DNA of 64,000 bases, from positions 871 to 64,870 of the forward strand of contig JACRCZ010000085.1 of the NCBI GenBank assembly GCA_016218765.1, written 5' to 3'. Of this stretch, positions 39,572 through 49,068 are shown piece after piece. Below the pieces are notes generated by a model, which saw nothing but the letters and a program-made list of their open reading frames with translations, was not told the DNA's origin and did not search any database. The translations under genes were made by a program, and so were the position numbers. Every line of letters starts with the position of its first letter. Within the stretch, counting starts at the first letter, position 1. The stretch is from Deltaproteobacteria bacterium (GTDB lineage Bacteria; Myxococcota_A; Polyangia; DRWM01; JAAZOP01).

Positions 39572-39614
39572 GTAGCGGGGCCTGGATTTGAACCAGGGAC
39601 CTTCGGGTTATGAG
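39572..39614. repeat. left 43-bp direct repeat (orphan 3' half of tRNA-Met), att site of island 2
   Basis: GTAGCGGGGCCTGGATTTGAACCAGGGACCTTCGGGTTATGAG is identical to 49026-49068. Flanks diverge immediately on both sides. Confidence 0.9.
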
Positions 39615-39740
39615 ATGGTCCGCCAGCCCTTGCCCCGTTCGCTGCTCCTTCCCCCCCTTGCAGTTTCGCAGCCTACGCGGTGCGCTGCGCTTGTCAACCT
39701 TGCGTGCCTTGCGGGTTCCTGCCAACCTGTGGCCCCAGAA

Positions 39741-40460
39741 ATGGCCCCGCGACCCAAACGCCGCAAGCACATGACGACCTCGCCGACGCGGGCTGCGGCA
39801 CTCCGGTTGGATCCGCCTGTAGTCCGCGTTGCACTGCTGCACCTGATCGACCTCGCGGCGTGCCATGACAGGTGGATGTCGTCGGGCCGGACGGGCACGG
39901 ATGCAGATGCCCTGGCGGTCCTCGGCAAGGTCCTGGAGGTTGTGGAGGCGCATCGACGACGACGGGCCTTGCGTGCTCATCGCGGCCAGCTTCGCACCAT
40001 CGTCGAAGCAGTCGCCTGCACGTACGACGAGGTCCGGGCGGGGAGAGTCGGCCGGGAGCAGGCGAGACGGGCGATAGGTCAGGTCTTGGAAGCCAACGGA
40101 TTGCGTCTGCCGGATGAGAATCTCCGGAGGCTGGTGCCGACGCGAGCAGCCATGCAACGACACGGAGGGCCACTCCAGACCGCGCGCCGACGACTCGCAC
40201 CCGTGTTGCATCGCTGCGAGAAGACGTTGTTCAACGTGCGCAACACCGACCCTCTCGTGGATACAGCATTCGGTGTGCGCATGGGACGCGGTGGCCTTGC
40301 TTCGTTCATCGAACGCCTCATCAACGGTTCGGTCGCTCCGGCTGCCCCGCCAAACAACCACACGGTCGGCGGACATGCTGACGCGGGGCAGGGAACACCC
40401 GAGGAACGCGATCCGAAACGTTCCGAAACTGTCCCTCCGGATTCCCGATCGCCGCCTTGA
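39741..40460 (+). CDS. hypothetical protein (start uncertain, alternative ATG 39771)
   Basis: ORF downstream of the left repeat. The first 50 codons of the track ORF are translated tRNA-repeat sequence and are discarded. No family recognised. Confidence 0.4.
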   Translation: MAPRPKRRKHMTTSPTRAAALRLDPPVVRVALLHLIDLAACHDRWMSSGRTGTDADALAVLGKVLEVVEAHRRRRALRAHRGQLRTIVEAVACTYDEVRAGRVGREQARRAIGQVLEANGLRLPDENLRRLVPTRAAMQRHGGPLQTARRRLAPVLHRCEKTLFNVRNTDPLVDTAFGVRMGRGGLASFIERLINGSVAPAAPPNNHTVGGHADAGQGTPEERDPKRSETVPPDSRSPP

Positions 40461-40483
40461 CCTTCCGGTCCTGACCCCTCCAA

Positions 40484-41869
40484 TCAGCCGTCCCAGGGCC
40501 AGGAGGACCAGCGGTCGGGAAGACCGTCCGGGCCGACCGCCAGCGTCTTCGCCCCCCTCGACGAGGTGAGAAACGGGAGCAAACCCGCATCGGCGAAGGT
40601 CCGGGCCTGGGGAGGCCCCTGCACCCCCCGGAGGGCAAGGGCCAGGGCGGTTGTCAGGTCGTCGTGGATCCGGCCGCCGACCGGCGCACCGTATTCGATC
40701 CGGCCCGACGGCTTGGCCCGTGCCTCGTAGAAACGCAACTCGTCGAGTAGGTCCCGGTTCGGCGGCAGGATGATCCCGCCGTTCTCGATCGCCACGGCAA
40801 GCGCCGTGACGATCTCCGCCTTCGTCGCCGTGGTGAAGGTGACCCCCTCGACCCAGCACCCTTGGCGGCGGAGCAACTCGACCAGCACCGCTCCCTGGCC
40901 GGTCCCATCGACGACCACCTTTGCGCCTCCGTGGAGCCGCGCAAGTTCGGCAACGCGCTGGACCTGTTCCACGAAGTCGCGTCCCCGGATGTCTTCGACG
41001 TGAACGCATCGCAGCGGCTTGCCCGTCGCATCGATGATCGCTACGCCGGAACGATCGCGCTTCAACGCGGGGTCCCAGCCGATCACGCAACGGCGATGCG
41101 CCCCGGCTTCAACTTGTTCGCCACCCGTGCAACGGACCACGTGGTCCCATCGGAAGACGGCATCGGTCTGATCGAGGAATTCGCCGCCGTACTCGACTCG
41201 GAATTGCCGGTCGGTGATTTCTGCGCGCTGGCCTTCCACGTATCCGCGATCGATGTAGGGGTTGTCCGCGCTTCGGATGATGAAGCTGGAAACCCTCGCA
41301 TCGGTCCCGCTCCGGCCCCGCTCGAACATGCGGTGGAACAGCGATCCCTTCGTGCTGGGAGTCGATGCGAGCACGAGTTCGCCGCCCACGTCGGCGAGTA
41401 GCGGCATGATGGCTTCCTCGATCACGGTGTCCGGAACGTACGCGGCTTCATCGACGACCACGCGATCGGCGGCGTGACCTCGAAGATGCTTCCCGCCCTC
41501 GTGCGCGGCCCGGACGAAGATCAGCACGCCGCCCGCGAGCCGCAGTTCGGGGAAGGGCGACGAAAACTCCGCTTCGATCAACCCGCCGAGGGGAGATTGC
41601 CGGATGAGGCGGGCCACCGCGGCGATCAGCAACTTCGCCTGATCGATGCCGGGGGCGACGAGAAGCTGCCGGAACGGTCGATGCGCATGCACGGCCTTCG
41701 CGGCATGGAACGCGATTTCGATCGCGAGCGAGATCGTTTTCCCCGATCGACGACCCCCGACGAGAGTTTTCGTCGGGTGCCGATCGAGGAGATACCGGGC
41801 CTGTCCGGCGTGCGGGACGATCCCGAGCACGGTCTCTGCGAAGACGGCGGCGTTATCGAGTCGGTCCAT
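40484..41869 (-). CDS. terL: phage terminase large subunit
   Basis: Walker A-like GGRRSGKT. Walker B VVVDEAAY. ASTP coupling motif. C-terminal RNase-H-like nuclease region (VIGWDPA...SGVAIID...HDDLTTALALA). Length 461 aa. Confidence 0.85.
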   Translation of the reverse strand: MDRLDNAAVFAETVLGIVPHAGQARYLLDRHPTKTLVGGRRSGKTISLAIEIAFHAAKAVHAHRPFRQLLVAPGIDQAKLLIAAVARLIRQSPLGGLIEAEFSSPFPELRLAGGVLIFVRAAHEGGKHLRGHAADRVVVDEAAYVPDTVIEEAIMPLLADVGGELVLASTPSTKGSLFHRMFERGRSGTDARVSSFIIRSADNPYIDRGYVEGQRAEITDRQFRVEYGGEFLDQTDAVFRWDHVVRCTGGEQVEAGAHRRCVIGWDPALKRDRSGVAIIDATGKPLRCVHVEDIRGRDFVEQVQRVAELARLHGGAKVVVDGTGQGAVLVELLRRQGCWVEGVTFTTATKAEIVTALAVAIENGGIILPPNRDLLDELRFYEARAKPSGRIEYGAPVGGRIHDDLTTALALALRGVQGPPQARTFADAGLLPFLTSSRGAKTLAVGPDGLPDRWSSWPWDG

Positions 41870-47281: not shown

Positions 47282-47575
47282 CTACTGATCTCGGTGTGAC
47301 GGCGTTTCTGATTCGAGGACGCCCGAGACCTCGTTCGTGTCGGAGCCAGCGGGATGCGCTTGGTGATCCCGAGATCGATCCTTGCCGGGAGAAACGCCGA
47401 CAACTTCGACCCGGTGTTGGGCCACCCAGGCGATCAGGTCCGCGCGGGAGAAGCGGACGATCCGCGCGCCCAGACGGTGGTGGGGGAGTTGCCTTCGTGC
47501 CGTCATGCTGTACAGCGTCCCCACCTTGACGTGCAGGAATTCCGCCGCCTCGGCGTAGGTCATGAAGTCGTTCAT
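47282..47575 (-). CDS. xis: AlpA/excisionase-type HTH protein
   Basis: MTYAEAAEFLHVKVGTLYSMTARRQLPHHRLGARIVRFSRADLIAWV is a canonical Xis/AlpA winged helix. It lies between int and rep. Confidence 0.8.
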   Translation of the reverse strand: MNDFMTYAEAAEFLHVKVGTLYSMTARRQLPHHRLGARIVRFSRADLIAWVAQHRVEVVGVSPGKDRSRDHQAHPAGSDTNEVSGVLESETPSHRDQ

Positions 47576-47757
47576 CGCAGCCTCCTAGCGCGAGCCGGCT
47601 CCCGGCCCGTCGCGAACAGTTGTACGCCGCGCGCGGGTAGCCGGTCTCCTGCAAGGCGAGGGCCGGGCGTTGCAGGAACCGGCGGCAGGCGTGGACGGCC
47701 GCGAACCGGCACGACGCAAGCCGCGCATGGCAGGGGACGAGTGCGGCAGGGAGTTCG

Positions 47758-48912
47758 CTACTCGGACTTCCCGGCGTTCAAGGACACGACCTCGCCAGAC
47801 CGAAGGGTCCCGGTCCCGCCAAGCCGCCCGTAGTCGGCGGCGAAGGCGGACGGAGCGAGGTGCGCGTAGCGCATGGTCATCTGGATCGACTGGTGCCCCA
47901 GGATCTTCTGGAGACGGAACAGATCGCCGCCCTTGCGCATGTACGCGGACGCGAAGGTGTGGCGCATGTCGTGAAAACGGATGTACCGGACCACGCGGTC
48001 CCCGATCATCGTCGTCGGGAATCCGGCGGCATCTAGAACACGGTGCAGCACCTCTTGGAAAACGCGCGCCGACGGGCCGTGCATCTCGTGCGCCTCGTTC
48101 GGGAAGACCAGGGGGCCAGGGCAGCGCAGCCGCCACGCGCGGAGAACCGGCAGGAGAGGATCGAGGATCGGAACGTGGCGCACGCGGTCGCTCTTCGTCG
48201 GCCCGTCGAAACTGCGCTGCACCGTGATCAGCCGACCGTCCAGATCAACATCCTCCCAGAGCAGCGCCGCAAGTTCGCCCGCCCGCATCCCCGTGTAGAT
48301 CGCCGCGGCGTACAGCACGAACACGTTCTCGCCCTCCGCGCGGGCCGCCGTCAGGAAGCGGATGATCTCGTCGTCGGTGCGAAGGTACCGGTAGTCCCGG
48401 CGGAAGATCGGAACGCGGGGCTTGCGGATGCGGGGCAGGATCGCCAGCCATCCGAGATCGCGCGCCGCCCTCAGCATCGAAATCAACAGCGTCAAGATGT
48501 TCGCGACGGTCTTCCGATCGAGCCGCTCCCGCTCCGCAACGAAGCGATCGACGTGCTGCACGCCGAGCACCCGAAGACGCGACGGACCGAACGCAGGGCG
48601 GAGGTGGCGACGGATGATGCTCTCGTCGTCCTTGCGGCTGCGCTTCCCGGCCGCTCGGTTCGCGATCCAGTAGTCGGCGAGTTCGTCGAACGTCTTCTCG
48701 GGCGGGGTCGGCGCACGCAGCCCGCGGCGGATCTCCTCGACCTCGGCCTGGTGCTGGTGCAGCTTGAACGTGGCGTCACGGCGATCGTCGTAGACCTCGC
48801 TGCGGCGCTCGCCGTTCTCGTCGAGCCACCGGATCCGCCATTTCCCGCGATGCTGGATCGGCTTCGCCACGGCCTTGCTCCTACAGCGAGCAAGGACCGG
48901 CGGCACCTGCAA
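47758..48912 (-). CDS. int: tyrosine recombinase / phage-type integrase
   Basis: YTGMRAGEL, HDMRHTFAS and LGHQSIQMTMRYAHL (R-H-R-Y catalytic pattern). Lies adjacent to the intact tRNA-Met. Confidence 0.9.
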   Translation of the reverse strand: MQVPPVLARCRSKAVAKPIQHRGKWRIRWLDENGERRSEVYDDRRDATFKLHQHQAEVEEIRRGLRAPTPPEKTFDELADYWIANRAAGKRSRKDDESIIRRHLRPAFGPSRLRVLGVQHVDRFVAERERLDRKTVANILTLLISMLRAARDLGWLAILPRIRKPRVPIFRRDYRYLRTDDEIIRFLTAARAEGENVFVLYAAAIYTGMRAGELAALLWEDVDLDGRLITVQRSFDGPTKSDRVRHVPILDPLLPVLRAWRLRCPGPLVFPNEAHEMHGPSARVFQEVLHRVLDAAGFPTTMIGDRVVRYIRFHDMRHTFASAYMRKGGDLFRLQKILGHQSIQMTMRYAHLAPSAFAADYGRLGGTGTLRSGEVVSLNAGKSE

Positions 48913-49025
48913 CGACCCGCCTGCCGGTTGCAGGAACCGGTCAGGTCGGCTCTCCCGTGGCCCCAGGCAGGCCCCAGAAAGAAAAACGAGGAGCCGACCT
49001 TGCGGACAACTCCTCGTCTTCTCTA

Positions 49026-49068
49026 GTAGCGGGGCCTGGATTTGAACCAGGGACCTTCGGGTTATGAG
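49026..49068. repeat. right 43-bp direct repeat (within intact tRNA-Met)
   Basis: Identical to 39572-39614. Confidence 0.9.

What the first reader, a model, noticed from the sequence alone, without database searches (positions are those of the whole stretch)
39572..49068. Complete 9.5-kb island in initiator tRNA-Met: Int-Xis-RCR Rep plus TerS/TerL but no virion genes (phage-satellite-like element)
Seen: a perfect 43-bp direct repeat (GTAGCGGGGCCTGGATTTGAACCAGGGACCTTCGGGTTATGAG) lies at 39572-39614 and 49026-49068. The right copy is the 3' half (anticodon loop to discriminator +1) of an intact tRNA-Met(CAT); the left copy is an orphan. Between them are a tyrosine integrase, an AlpA/Xis HTH, an HUH rolling-circle Rep, two paralogous unknowns, an RHH protein, a serine recombinase, an IPT/TIG lipoprotein, an HTH TerS-like protein and a full-length TerL. 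No ORF resembles a capsid, portal, tail, lysis or conjugation (FtsK/T4SS/relaxase) gene. Established: int + xis + replication initiator + terminase subunit(s) without structural genes is the architecture of helper-dependent phage satellites (PICI/cfPICI/PLE/P4 classes). Inference: this is a satellite-like, helper-packaged element. I am not aware of a described satellite family that combines an RCR Rep with both terminase subunits in a Myxococcota-like high-GC host.
Basis: partly seen in the sequence, partly recalled or inferred. Interest (0 to 1): 0.8.

Follow-up and report, generated by a model that had tools for sequence, protein, structure and literature searches.

The report
Terminase-carrying integrative island, no capsid genes
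A 9.45-kb mobile island in the initiator tRNA-Met gene of an uncultured deltaproteobacterial genome carries its own integration, replication and DNA-packaging enzymes but no virus-shell genes, and it belongs to a small, previously undescribed family that most likely spreads by stealing another phage's capsids.

Summary
A perfect 43-bp direct repeat (39572-39614 and 49026-49068) bounds a 9,454-bp, lower-GC island. The right copy is the 3' half of an intact initiator-type tRNA-Met.

The island encodes a tyrosine integrase, an excisionase-type HTH, an HUH rolling-circle Rep, a small serine recombinase and an IPT/TIG lipoprotein. It also encodes a full-length TerL with intact ATPase and nuclease residues, overlapped at its start by a conserved HTH gene. 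Pfam and PHROGs find no capsid, portal, tail, lysis or conjugation gene, and the same searches do find portal and major head genes beside the nearest phage TerLs.

The island is not a one-off. About 20 environmental loci carry the same HTH-TerL pair. Integrases (tyrosine or large serine), replication modules and cargo (restriction-modification, ATPases) are swapped between them. A second island, fully delimited, sits in tRNA-Pro. TerL evolves under purifying selection (dN/dS 0.08-0.18).

The best reading is a helper-dependent phage satellite that brings its own terminase (confidence 0.58). Three things remain unproven: the helper, encapsidation, and the TerS identity of the HTH protein. The family was not found in the viral contig collection, and no paper describing this architecture was found. 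I rate it a new variant of a known kind.

The parts
39572..39614 (-). attL: orphan 43-bp copy of the tRNA-fMet 3' half (left island boundary)
   Evidence: Exact repeat. Not called as a tRNA. Sequence shown.
39520..39571 (-). Native tRNA terminator left behind next to the orphan copy (hairpin plus U-run)
   Evidence: Fold -31.1 kcal/mol, z -5.79. Sequence.
39615..40483 (.). 870-bp stretch between attL and the TerL stop. No confirmed gene. There is a possible + strand ORF (39771-40460, 229 aa) with weak coding signal. A packaging (pac) site or replication origin could lie here (inference).
   Evidence: No Pfam, PHROGs or PADLOC hit. Not in the protein collection with three tested starts. Not conserved in L001. 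Ambiguous GC3.
40484..41869 (-). TerL, terminase large subunit (461 aa), full length with ATPase and nuclease domains
   Evidence: Terminase_6N 35.9 bits and 6C 36.3 bits, both above cut-off; phrog_2 E 5.5e-36. Profile matches the solved Thermus-phage TerL nuclease (5tge, 5m1f) and ATPase (4zni) domains. Invariant GGRRSGKT, D140/E141, D266, D321, D403/D404. dN/dS 0.18.
41853..42476 (-). HTH protein (207-aa ORF), candidate TerS. Its stop overlaps the TerL start by 17 nt.
   Evidence: HTH_24 and HTH_3 hits only. Found immediately upstream of TerL in 23 loci of TerL clades A and B and never beside phage-type TerLs. AF2 model (pLDDT 76): HTH plus long helical hairpin. No significant fold or sequence match to solved TerS. 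The NCBI 151-aa gene call cuts off the conserved RYARGV motif.
42822..44135 (+). IPT/TIG-domain lipoprotein (437 aa), cargo. Possible surface or superinfection-exclusion role (inference).
   Evidence: PF01833, 42.5 bits. NCBI MBI5500852.1 'IPT/TIG domain-containing protein'. Signal peptide with a SAGC lipobox read from the sequence. N-terminal homologue at the same position in L001.
44176..44835 (-). Small serine recombinase (resolvase/invertase type, 219 aa from the second Met)
   Evidence: PF00239 150.7 bits; phrog_125 DNA invertase E 4e-56. Homologues by sequence in L001, L002, L092, L215 and L216, and a Pfam Resolvase gene in L219. Start inferred from promoter and SD.
44836..44925 (.). AT-rich divergent promoter region between the resolvase and the small + strand gene. 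The two promoter-like sites overlap and share a TTGTCAA core. Candidate operator or res site (inference).
   Evidence: Promoter-like sites: 11/12 match on the minus strand and 9/12 on the plus strand. Most AT-rich part of the island. Sequence.
44926..45186 (+). Small protein (86 aa), RHH-like by eye only, paired divergently with the resolvase
   Evidence: No profile hit. 55% identical homologue in the same position in L001. dN/dS 0.27.
45208..45624 (-). Unknown B (HY907_11480, 138 aa). Shares a roughly 50-aa motif with unknown A.
   Evidence: No hits in Pfam, PHROGs, PADLOC or NCBIfam. Paralogy. NCBI gene call.
45770..46387 (-). Unknown A (HY907_11485; 135 aa in NCBI, 205 aa in another gene call)
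   Evidence: No profile hits. Single-sequence AF2 model unusable (pLDDT 47). Gene calls.
46587..47255 (-). HUH rolling-circle replication initiator (222 aa, HY907_11490), distantly Rep_1-like
   Evidence: Rep_1 E 5e-4 (20 bits, below the 33.2 cut-off) and phrog_3584 E 1.6e-3. Conserved CKxRxCPxC zinc finger, HxHhhh and YxxK motifs shared with L001, L215 and two distant homologues that carry PF01446 and PF23343. 28% match to Enterococcus RCR-plasmid Rep.
47282..47575 (-). Excisionase / AlpA-type HTH (97 aa)
   Evidence: PF12728 49 bits; TIGR01764 'excise' 47.1 bits (cut-off 28.8); phrog_66.
47758..48912 (-). Tyrosine integrase (up to 384 aa), adjacent to the regenerated tRNA
   Evidence: PF00589 92.9 bits; phrog_1 E 1.7e-66.
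48975..49025 (-). Island-borne terminator that now serves the regenerated tRNA
   Evidence: Fold -27.3 kcal/mol, z -5.13. Sequence.
49026..49100 (-). Intact initiator-type tRNA-Met(CAT). Its 3' 43 nt (49026-49068) are attR. A promoter-like site lies at 49139-49167.
   Evidence: ARAGORN. Rfam 62.6 bits. Repeat. Promoter-like site, 10/12 match.

Best explanation
This is an integrative, helper-dependent phage satellite of an undescribed family. The family hallmark is a self-encoded terminase: a candidate small subunit (the HTH protein) plus TerL, with no virion genes.

Proposed cycle:
1. Int inserted the element into the 3' half of the initiator tRNA-Met gene. The element carries a replacement tRNA 3' half and terminator. 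This step is shown by the anatomy.
2. On a trigger, presumably infection by or induction of a helper phage, Int and Xis excise a 9,454-bp circle (inferred).
3. The HUH Rep nicks an origin and replicates the circle by the rolling-circle route, producing multimers (inferred from the Rep family).
4. The HTH protein binds a site on the element and recruits TerL. TerL cuts the DNA and pumps it into empty capsids made by the helper, probably as headful multimers. The conserved TerL C-terminal tail would dock on the helper portal (inferred).
5. The helper supplies tails and lysis (inferred).
6. In the new cell, the conserved small serine recombinase (or host recombination) would resolve the linear multimer into a monomer circle, as Cre-lox does for phage P1. 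Int then re-integrates it (inferred).

The lipoprotein here, and the restriction-modification or ATPase genes in relatives, are cargo that may protect the host.
For: Insertion anatomy: exact 43-bp att repeat, regenerated tRNA, duplicated terminators, GC drop.

Complete integration, excision and replication set, plus a TerL whose catalytic residues are invariant across 25 homologues and align to solved TerL domains.

No structural, lysis or conjugation gene in the window island. None was found either among the large or unknown ORFs tested with PHROGs, or in the Pfam annotations of relatives, including a second island (L092, 14 kb in tRNA-Pro) delimited by a 19-nt repeat of the tRNA 3' end. The same tools detect portal and major head genes right after the nearest phage TerLs.

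The HTH-TerL pair is conserved and adjacent in 23 loci. TerL clades A and B form a lineage separate from the phage TerLs sampled.

Purifying selection: dN/dS 0.18 and 0.08 for TerL, 0.26 for the HTH protein.

Module shuffling typical of satellites:
- tyrosine or large serine integrase
- Rep_1-like, G2P-like or Y2_Tnp-like initiator, or primase-polymerase plus helicase
- defence-type cargo

The HTH model has the general layout of small terminases: an N-terminal HTH followed by a long helical hairpin.

The size of 9.45 kb equals the median size of PICI, the phage-inducible chromosomal islands (PMC10085698, read).
Against: There is no direct evidence of excision, replication or encapsidation.

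No helper was identified. No phage structural family appears among 31 ORFs from the rest of the window, although only the top 25 of 41 matched families were listed.

No family member was found in the viral contig collection, with either the TerL or the HTH profile. None of the related contigs is circular.

The HTH protein has no detectable homology to any known TerS by sequence or fold.

No pC194-type nick site was found.

At least one relative (L219) seems to have lost most of TerL.

A terminase that must fit a foreign portal is not documented for any described satellite class in the papers read.
Confidence: 0.58

Rival explanations
1. It is an integrative, rolling-circle plasmid-like or mobilizable element in which the HTH-TerL pair does not package the element. 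Instead the pair acts against phages, for example as a decoy or rogue terminase that cuts or mis-packages invading phage DNA. The element itself would move by other means: mobilization with Rep acting as a relaxase, vesicles, or transformation.
For: Relatives carry defence-type cargo: BsuBI/PstI restriction enzyme plus methylase, AAA_13/SMC ATPase, methylase plus McrB_N. The family is absent from the viral contig collection. No TerS homology. The int-xis-RCR Rep combination is also the backbone of actinomycete integrative elements and of some integrative mobilizable elements (own knowledge).
Against: PADLOC finds nothing significant in the island. No relaxase, coupling protein or FtsK/TraB-like gene. 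Both the ATPase motor motifs and the nuclease motifs of TerL are conserved, as is a C-terminal tail; this fits a translocating enzyme better than a mere nuclease. I know of no terminase large subunit shown to work without a portal (own knowledge).
Confidence: 0.2
2. It is a decayed prophage remnant: the leftover packaging module of a dead phage that happens to sit beside an integrated RCR plasmid or integrase.
For: The nearest TerL relatives outside the family are bona fide phage terminases with portal and head genes alongside. Some relatives have truncated TerL genes (L009 357 aa, L219 148 aa).
Against: The same compact architecture recurs in about 20 loci whose TerLs are 40-81% identical to this one. 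These include two islands with both ends mapped, neither with structural genes. TerL and the HTH protein are under purifying selection with all catalytic residues invariant. The att repeat is perfect. Neighbouring modules are swapped rather than eroded.
Confidence: 0.07
3. It is a complete, very small virus whose capsid, portal and tail proteins are too divergent for profile searches and hide among the unknown ORFs.
For: Several ORFs here and in relatives have no hit in any library. L217, which carries a basal TerL of the family, sits in a long co-directional operon of unknowns that looks viral but has no PHROG hit.
Against: No unknown ORF is conserved across the family. Only HTH, TerL, the recombinases and Rep recur, apart from one unknown of about 310-395 aa shared by three relatives. 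After the assigned genes, the window island has room for only about 1.9 kb of unknown coding sequence, too little for a portal, a capsid protein and a tail. The largest unassigned protein is an exported lipoprotein.
Confidence: 0.04

Closest known systems
PICI (phage-inducible chromosomal islands, including SaPIs)
   Same: About 9.5 kb. Site-specific integrase next to the att site, AlpA/excisionase-type HTH, own replication initiator, a packaging-specificity gene, no virion or lysis genes, accessory or defence cargo (PMC10085698 read).
   Different: PICI use a primase-replicase and carry only a small terminase subunit or a redirecting protein, together with capsid-size genes. They rely on the helper's TerL. 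This island has an HUH rolling-circle Rep and its own full TerL, and no capsid-morphogenesis homologue. Its hosts are uncultured 'deltaproteobacterial' and Oligoflexia genomes.
cfPICI (capsid-forming PICI)
   Same: Satellites that encode both terminase subunits. terL is listed as a distinguishing core gene of cfPICI (PMC10085698).
   Different: In cfPICI, terL comes together with major capsid, portal, protease and head-tail adaptor or connector genes. None of these is detectable here or in relatives, while the same tools detect them next to phage TerLs.
Tycheposons and VEIMEs (marine satellite-like integrative elements)
   Same: tRNA-targeting tyrosine recombinase, excisionase, replication module, sometimes a small serine recombinase and a terS, swappable cargo. 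VEIMEs have no major capsid gene, and their concatemeric packaging is consistent with rolling-circle replication.
   Different: They carry terS or a capsid gene, not terL. Their replication uses primase/helicase types. No sequence relationship to them was tested or seen here.
Haloarchaeal SRCE satellites (rolling-circle Rep plasmids carrying part of a virus morphogenesis module)
   Same: The same logic: a plasmid-type RCR Rep combined with an incomplete virion module that can include the packaging ATPase, proposed to hijack a helper virus (10.1101/2025.02.15.638363).
   Different: Archaeal, non-integrated, tied to spindle-shaped viruses, and the ATPase is an AAA+ protein rather than a terminase. 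This is an analogy only.
Actinomycete integrative elements (AICE) and RCR-type integrative mobilizable elements
   Same: An int + xis + rolling-circle Rep backbone inserted in a tRNA gene (own knowledge).
   Different: Those transfer with an FtsK/TraB-like translocase or are mobilized through an oriT and relaxase. No such gene is present here, and a terminase is.
Small plasmids carrying a terminase-family gene (e.g. Salinibacter ruber pSR11, 11.2 kb)
   Same: A small replicon with a CopG/RHH gene, its own replication protein and a terminase-family protein. The record annotates no capsid gene, although seven of its 14 genes are hypothetical.
   Different: Only about 30% identity over half of TerL. 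P4-type primase, ParA, no integrase. Uncharacterized, so it is a parallel rather than a described family.

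Membership tests
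tRNA-inserted genomic island (tyrosine-integrase type) | Direct repeat made of the tRNA 3' part, with an intact tRNA at one end and an orphan fragment at the other | tested here: met
   43/43 identity; tRNA intact.
tRNA-inserted genomic island (tyrosine-integrase type) | Integrase gene just inside the island next to the regenerated tRNA | tested here: met
   PF00589 92.9 bits; the gene ends 113 bp from attR.
TerL (Terminase_6 type large terminase) | N-terminal ATPase with Walker A and B, C-terminal RNaseH-like nuclease with an acidic triad, both domains above the curated cut-off | tested here: met
   35.9 bits (cut-off 22) and 36.3 bits (cut-off 22.6). Invariant K44, D140/E141, D266, D321, D403/D404. 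Aligns to 5tge, 5m1f and 4zni.
TerS (small terminase) | Gene immediately upstream of terL and co-transcribed, about 150-250 aa, N-terminal DNA-binding HTH followed by a helical oligomerization core | tested here: met
   17-nt overlap with TerL. Adjacent in 23 loci. AF2 model: HTH at 48-86, helices at 88-131 and 137-161.
TerS (small terminase) | Sequence or fold homology to a recognised TerS family | tested here: inconclusive
   Pfam, PHROGs and NCBIfam give only generic HTH hits. The PDB profile search finds only HTH regulators. Foldseek best E 0.04; phBC6A51 protein 2ao9 only at E 0.24. No match in 50,697 phage records.
HUH rolling-circle Rep (Rep_1 / pC194-pUB110 superfamily) | HUH metal-binding motif and catalytic YxxK motif | tested here: met
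   WDAHAHLII and FCGYLSK, conserved in the Rep_1-type sequences of alignment A6.
HUH rolling-circle Rep (Rep_1 / pC194-pUB110 superfamily) | Pfam Rep_1 match above the gathering score | tested here: not met
   20.0 bits against a cut-off of 33.2. Distant homologues P0049 and P0050 do carry PF01446 and PF23343.
HUH rolling-circle Rep (Rep_1 / pC194-pUB110 superfamily) | Recognisable double-strand origin with a CTTGATA-type nick site | tested here: not met
   No CTTGATA in the island; the three CTTGAT sites all lie inside genes. The nick-site consensus is recalled from memory.
PICI | Integrase + AlpA/Stl-type regulator + primase-replicase + terS and/or capsid-morphogenesis gene, and no other phage genes | tested here: not met
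   Integrase and AlpA-like HTH are present. The replication gene is an HUH Rep, not a primase-replicase. A full TerL is present. No capsid-morphogenesis hit. Criteria from PMC10085698.
PICI | Induction, replication and packaging that depend on a helper phage | not testable with these tools
   Needs culture, virome or read-level data.
cfPICI | terL together with major capsid, portal, protease and head-tail adaptor or connector genes | tested here: not met
   terL is present, but no capsid, portal, protease or connector hit in Pfam or PHROGs. The controls are positive.
P4-like satellites / PLE / PICMI | Family-specific core genes (for P4: sid, psu, delta, alpha primase, cos site) | tested here: inconclusive
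   No PHROG or Pfam hit to such proteins. SatelliteFinder models were not available.
Intact temperate prophage | Head, tail and lysis modules | tested here: not met
   None found in 9.45 kb. The coding capacity is too small.
AICE / integrative mobilizable element | FtsK/TraB-type translocase, or relaxase and oriT | tested here: not met
   No such Pfam hit among the island ORFs. An oriT cannot be recognised with these tools.

The most novel reading that the evidence does not exclude
A previously unrecognised class of phage satellites, found in uncultured deltaproteobacterial (Myxococcota-like) and Oligoflexia genomes. The class would be defined by a portable terminase holoenzyme: a novel HTH-type small subunit plus TerL, with no capsid genes. 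This holoenzyme is bolted onto interchangeable integration and replication modules. Such elements would take over helper capsids by supplying the entire packaging motor, rather than by retargeting the helper's motor as PICI do or by building their own heads as cfPICI do.
Probability: 0.5. Interest if true: 0.75.

Novelty: new variant of a known kind. Interest (0 to 1): 0.62.

Why it matters
Known satellites hijack packaging in one of two ways. Some retarget the helper's terminase with a small subunit or an adaptor protein. Others build their own capsids. An element that brings both terminase subunits but no capsid would be a third strategy.

It would also imply that a terminase can be matched to a foreign portal. 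That makes the element a handle on what determines terminase-portal specificity.

It would extend satellite biology to Myxococcota-like and Bdellovibrionota-like bacteria, whose phages are barely known. It would also add a detectable marker, the HTH-TerL pair, for finding such elements and their defence cargo in metagenomes.

Tried and rejected
- Looked for circular, episomal copies. None of the first related contigs has terminal overlap.
- Looked for att repeats in L219 and L007. None was convincing.
- Searched the viral contig collection with the TerL and HTH profiles. Only phage TerLs at 37% identity or less, and bare HTH-domain matches, were found.
- Tried to prove TerS identity by PDB profile search and Foldseek. 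Nothing was significant.
- Single-sequence structure prediction of unknown A gave pLDDT 47, so no fold search was run on it.
- PADLOC found no defence system in the window island.
- Searched for a pC194-type nick site and for local repeats that could mark an origin. Nothing was usable.
- Rfam found only the tRNA.
- The window's own TerL is not in the gene-position index, so independent gene calls for the island came only from an exact-sequence look-up.
- The first genome scan with the broad alignment failed for lack of conserved stretches and was repeated with a narrower alignment.
- Considered the Halomarina 16.7-kb plasmid as an analogue and rejected it, because it carries a minor head protein gene.

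Full report
OBSERVATION

The 43-mer GTAGCGGGGCCTGGATTTGAACCAGGGACCTTCGGGTTATGAG occurs exactly twice in the window, at 39572-39614 and 49026-49068. No match is expected in shuffled sequence.

ARAGORN and Rfam find a single tRNA-Met(CAT) at 49026-49100 on the minus strand. The right repeat copy is its 3' part, from the anticodon loop to one base past the discriminator. The sequence shows a C1/U72 mismatch and three G:C pairs closing the anticodon stem. These are the textbook marks of a bacterial initiator tRNA (established knowledge). The left copy is an orphan.

Each copy is followed on the tRNA strand by a strong hairpin and a U-run (-31.1 and -27.3 kcal/mol; z -5.8 and -5.1). The displaced fragment therefore keeps the native terminator, and the island brings a substitute. 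GC falls to 0.61-0.70 inside the island, against up to 0.78 in the flanks. The unit between repeat starts is 9,454 bp.

GENE CONTENT

Because the DNA is 71% GC, ORF lists are noisy. I used third-position GC, translations, start-codon inspection and exact look-ups of NCBI and other gene calls.

Profile searches give:
- a tyrosine integrase, 47758-48912(-)
- an excisionase-type HTH, 47282-47575(-), TIGR01764 above cut-off
- a 222-aa Rep, 46587-47255(-)
- two unknowns that share a roughly 50-residue motif
- a small serine recombinase, 44176-44835(-)
- an exported IPT/TIG lipoprotein, 42822-44135(+)
- an HTH protein, 41853-42476(-)
- a 461-aa TerL, 40484-41869(-), whose start overlaps the HTH gene's stop

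Rep scores below the Pfam cut-off (Rep_1, 20 bits). However, it has the zinc finger CKxRxCPxC, an HUH motif (HAHLII) and a YxxK motif. All are conserved in homologues from two related islands and in two distant homologues that do carry Rep_1 and REP_ORF2-G2P domains. Its only plasmid matches are Rep genes of 3.8-kb Enterococcus plasmids.

Nothing in the island matches a capsid, portal, tail, lysis, relaxase or translocase family. PADLOC finds no defence system.

IS TerL REAL AND INTACT?

A profile of 25 homologues matches the solved nuclease domains (5tge, 5m1f) and ATPase domain (4zni) of Thermus-phage terminases. The protein matches TerL genes of 67 deposited phages at 26-35% identity.

The following are invariant or nearly so across the family: Walker A (GGRRSGKT), Walker B (D140, E141), the ASTP motif, the three acidic nuclease positions (D266, D321, D403/D404) and a C-terminal tail motif.

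dN/dS is 0.18 between the window and its closest relative, and 0.08 for another pair. TerL is therefore not a decaying relic.

THE ISLAND IS ONE OF A FAMILY

A search of 5.8 billion proteins returned only 31 relatives of TerL, most on 8-12-kb contigs. I read gene maps around 12 of them. I also scanned 185,579 species genomes, JGI metagenomes and viral contigs.

TerLs at least 48% identical (clade A) and a sister group at 40-42% (clade B) are always preceded by a homologue of the HTH protein, except in the atypical L217 and at contig ends. TerLs at 38% or less never are.

Next to those more distant TerLs, PHROGs readily finds portal and major head genes. The same library finds none next to clade A or B TerLs. 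This is the key control.

Around the constant HTH-TerL pair everything else is modular:
- Integrase: tyrosine type (window, L002, L092, L215, L007) or large serine recombinase (L001, the closest relative at 81% TerL identity).
- Replication: Rep_1-like HUH Rep (window, L001, L215), G2P-like Rep (L092, L002), Y2-transposase-like HUH proteins (L009, L010), or primase-polymerase plus helicase (L143).
- Cargo: lipoproteins, a BsuBI/PstI-type restriction-modification pair, an AAA_13/SMC ATPase, a methylase with McrB_N, AhpC and sulfatase-maturase genes.

A small serine recombinase recurs in at least seven members.

One relative is fully delimited. L092, from a 417-kb contig of an uncultured deltaproteobacterial genome, is a 14-kb island. 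It starts at tRNA-Pro(UGG) and ends at a 19-nt repeat of the tRNA 3' end, and it has no structural genes. L007 sits beside tRNA-Pro(GGG) and L219 beside tRNA-Gly.

An exhaustive profile search of 1.84 billion cluster representatives found 28 matches to the HTH protein at E <= 1e-30. Judged from the listed alignments, there are about 50 full-length matches. The family is real but rare.

THE HTH PROTEIN

Its position, size and strict co-occurrence with TerL fit a small terminase subunit. So does its predicted structure: a disordered N-terminus, an HTH at residues 48-86, a long helical hairpin at 88-161, and short C-terminal helices (pLDDT 76).

No sequence or fold homology to a known TerS could be shown. 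I therefore treat the TerS identity as a well-motivated inference. The conserved RYARGV motif lies upstream of the start that NCBI chose, so the longer ORF is probably correct.

MECHANISM

A terminase large subunit has no known role other than cutting DNA and pumping it into a portal-bearing procapsid. An element that keeps a catalytically intact TerL under purifying selection, yet has no capsid or portal of its own, must find capsids elsewhere or use the enzyme against phages.

The most economical model is a satellite, with these steps:
1. Excision by Int and Xis.
2. Rolling-circle amplification by Rep.
3. Recognition by the HTH subunit.
4. Cutting and headful packaging by TerL into helper procapsids.
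5. Release through the helper's lysis.
6. In the recipient, resolution of the multimer by the conserved serine recombinase, as Cre-lox does for P1 (established knowledge for P1; inference here).
7. Re-integration into tRNA-fMet.

Only the integration step is shown by the sequence. Everything downstream is inferred.

Weak points:
- No helper was found. No structural phage family was found among 31 ORFs in the rest of the window.
- No member of the family was found in the viral collection.
- No circular contig was seen.
- No origin or pac site was identified.

RIVAL EXPLANATIONS

- Non-packaging, anti-phage or plasmid-like role for HTH-TerL: confidence 0.2.
- Prophage remnant: 0.07. The recurring compact architecture, purifying selection and module swapping argue against it.
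- Cryptic complete virus: 0.04. No unknown ORF recurs across the family apart from one shared by three relatives, and there is too little coding space.

COMPARISON WITH KNOWN SYSTEMS

According to the SatelliteFinder paper, PICI carry an integrase, a regulator, a primase-replicase, capsid-morphogenesis genes and terS. terL is a distinguishing core gene of cfPICI, where it comes with capsid and head-tail adaptor/connector genes (PMC10085698).

Marine VEIMEs and tycheposons carry terS or a capsid gene, not terL. Mycobacterial EPIPs are listed with terS, a major capsid protein, adaptors and a tape measure protein, although the same preprint says they lack capsid proteins. The Pseudomonas satellite AH14b has no terminase at all.

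Haloarchaeal SRCEs are the nearest conceptual parallel, combining a plasmid RCR Rep with part of a virion module, but they are unrelated in sequence and host. A few small plasmids carry terminase-family genes, for example S. ruber pSR11 with a P4-type primase and CopG, but they are uncharacterized.

Five literature searches found no description of an int-xis-Rep-HTH-TerL element lacking capsid genes. The library is incomplete, so this is absence of evidence.

The island works like a PICI-type satellite but fails the membership tests for PICI, cfPICI and P4-like elements.

VERDICT

Novelty: new variant of a known kind, namely a satellite-like integrative element that carries its own terminase. 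Interest is 0.62. The idea is testable and would add a new hijacking strategy and new host phyla, but all functional steps beyond integration remain to be shown.

Noticed in passing
window 239-8062: A second tyrosine integrase (6679-7962, +; PF00589 79 bits) abuts tRNA-Gly(GCC) at 7990-8062(-). Upstream lie a RecA gene (239-1333), a RadC-like JAB protein (3491-3934) and two large unknown ORFs. This is possibly a second tRNA-inserted island running off the left edge of the window. No repeat of the tRNA-Gly 3' end was found within the window.
   Followed up: partly
L004 62-1011 and 3730-5924 (also L005): One relative carries the HTH gene twice. The first copy is followed by only the first ~100 codons of TerL, then by unrelated genes (an unknown, a DUF6232 protein, an Endonuclease_NS nuclease, a small ORF). 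The second copy is followed by a full TerL. This looks like tandem or recombined elements.
   Followed up: no
L219 10001-10959 (also L220, L221): The HTH gene is followed by a 148-aa ORF instead of a full TerL. The island also carries a 742-aa methylase-like protein, a McrB_N protein, a resolvase and an integrase next to tRNA-Gly(CCC). This may be a member that has lost its terminase. It is seen on 12 contigs.
   Followed up: partly
L217 1-12675: The basal TerL of the family (P0025, 550 aa with a C-terminal extension, 48% identical) lacks the HTH partner. It ends a 10-kb co-directional operon of 13 unknown proteins, one with a CBM_4_9 domain, and none has a PHROG hit. This is possibly a novel phage and a candidate helper lineage.
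   Followed up: partly
L223 (Rhodococcus qingshengii plasmid pDJL3, 15.9 kb) and L222 (Salinibacter ruber pSR11, 11.2 kb): Small circular plasmids carry terminase-family genes but no annotated capsid gene (many of their genes are hypothetical). pDJL3 also has an integrase and a tape-measure protein, reminiscent of the mycobacterial EPIP satellites. pSR11 has a P4-type primase, CopG and ParA. In addition, 115 Acinetobacter plasmids gave partial TerL matches that were not examined.
   Followed up: partly
window 44836-44925: The most AT-rich stretch of the island holds two overlapping divergent promoter-like sites that share a TTGTCAA core, between the resolvase and the small + strand gene. The same gene pair and spacing are conserved in L001.
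   Followed up: partly
window 38706-39500 (-): By eye, the ORF just left of attL looks like a small P-loop GTPase (GPALSGKTT). It gave no Pfam hit when the whole 264-aa stretch was scanned. It is followed by a PocR-domain histidine kinase at 37302-38702.
   Followed up: no
Logan contig of 7,432 bp: A second assembly holds a 7.4-kb contig carrying exactly the same lipoprotein and the two unknowns, which is shorter than the 9.45-kb island. Where it breaks might mark a population variant or a coverage change.
   Followed up: no
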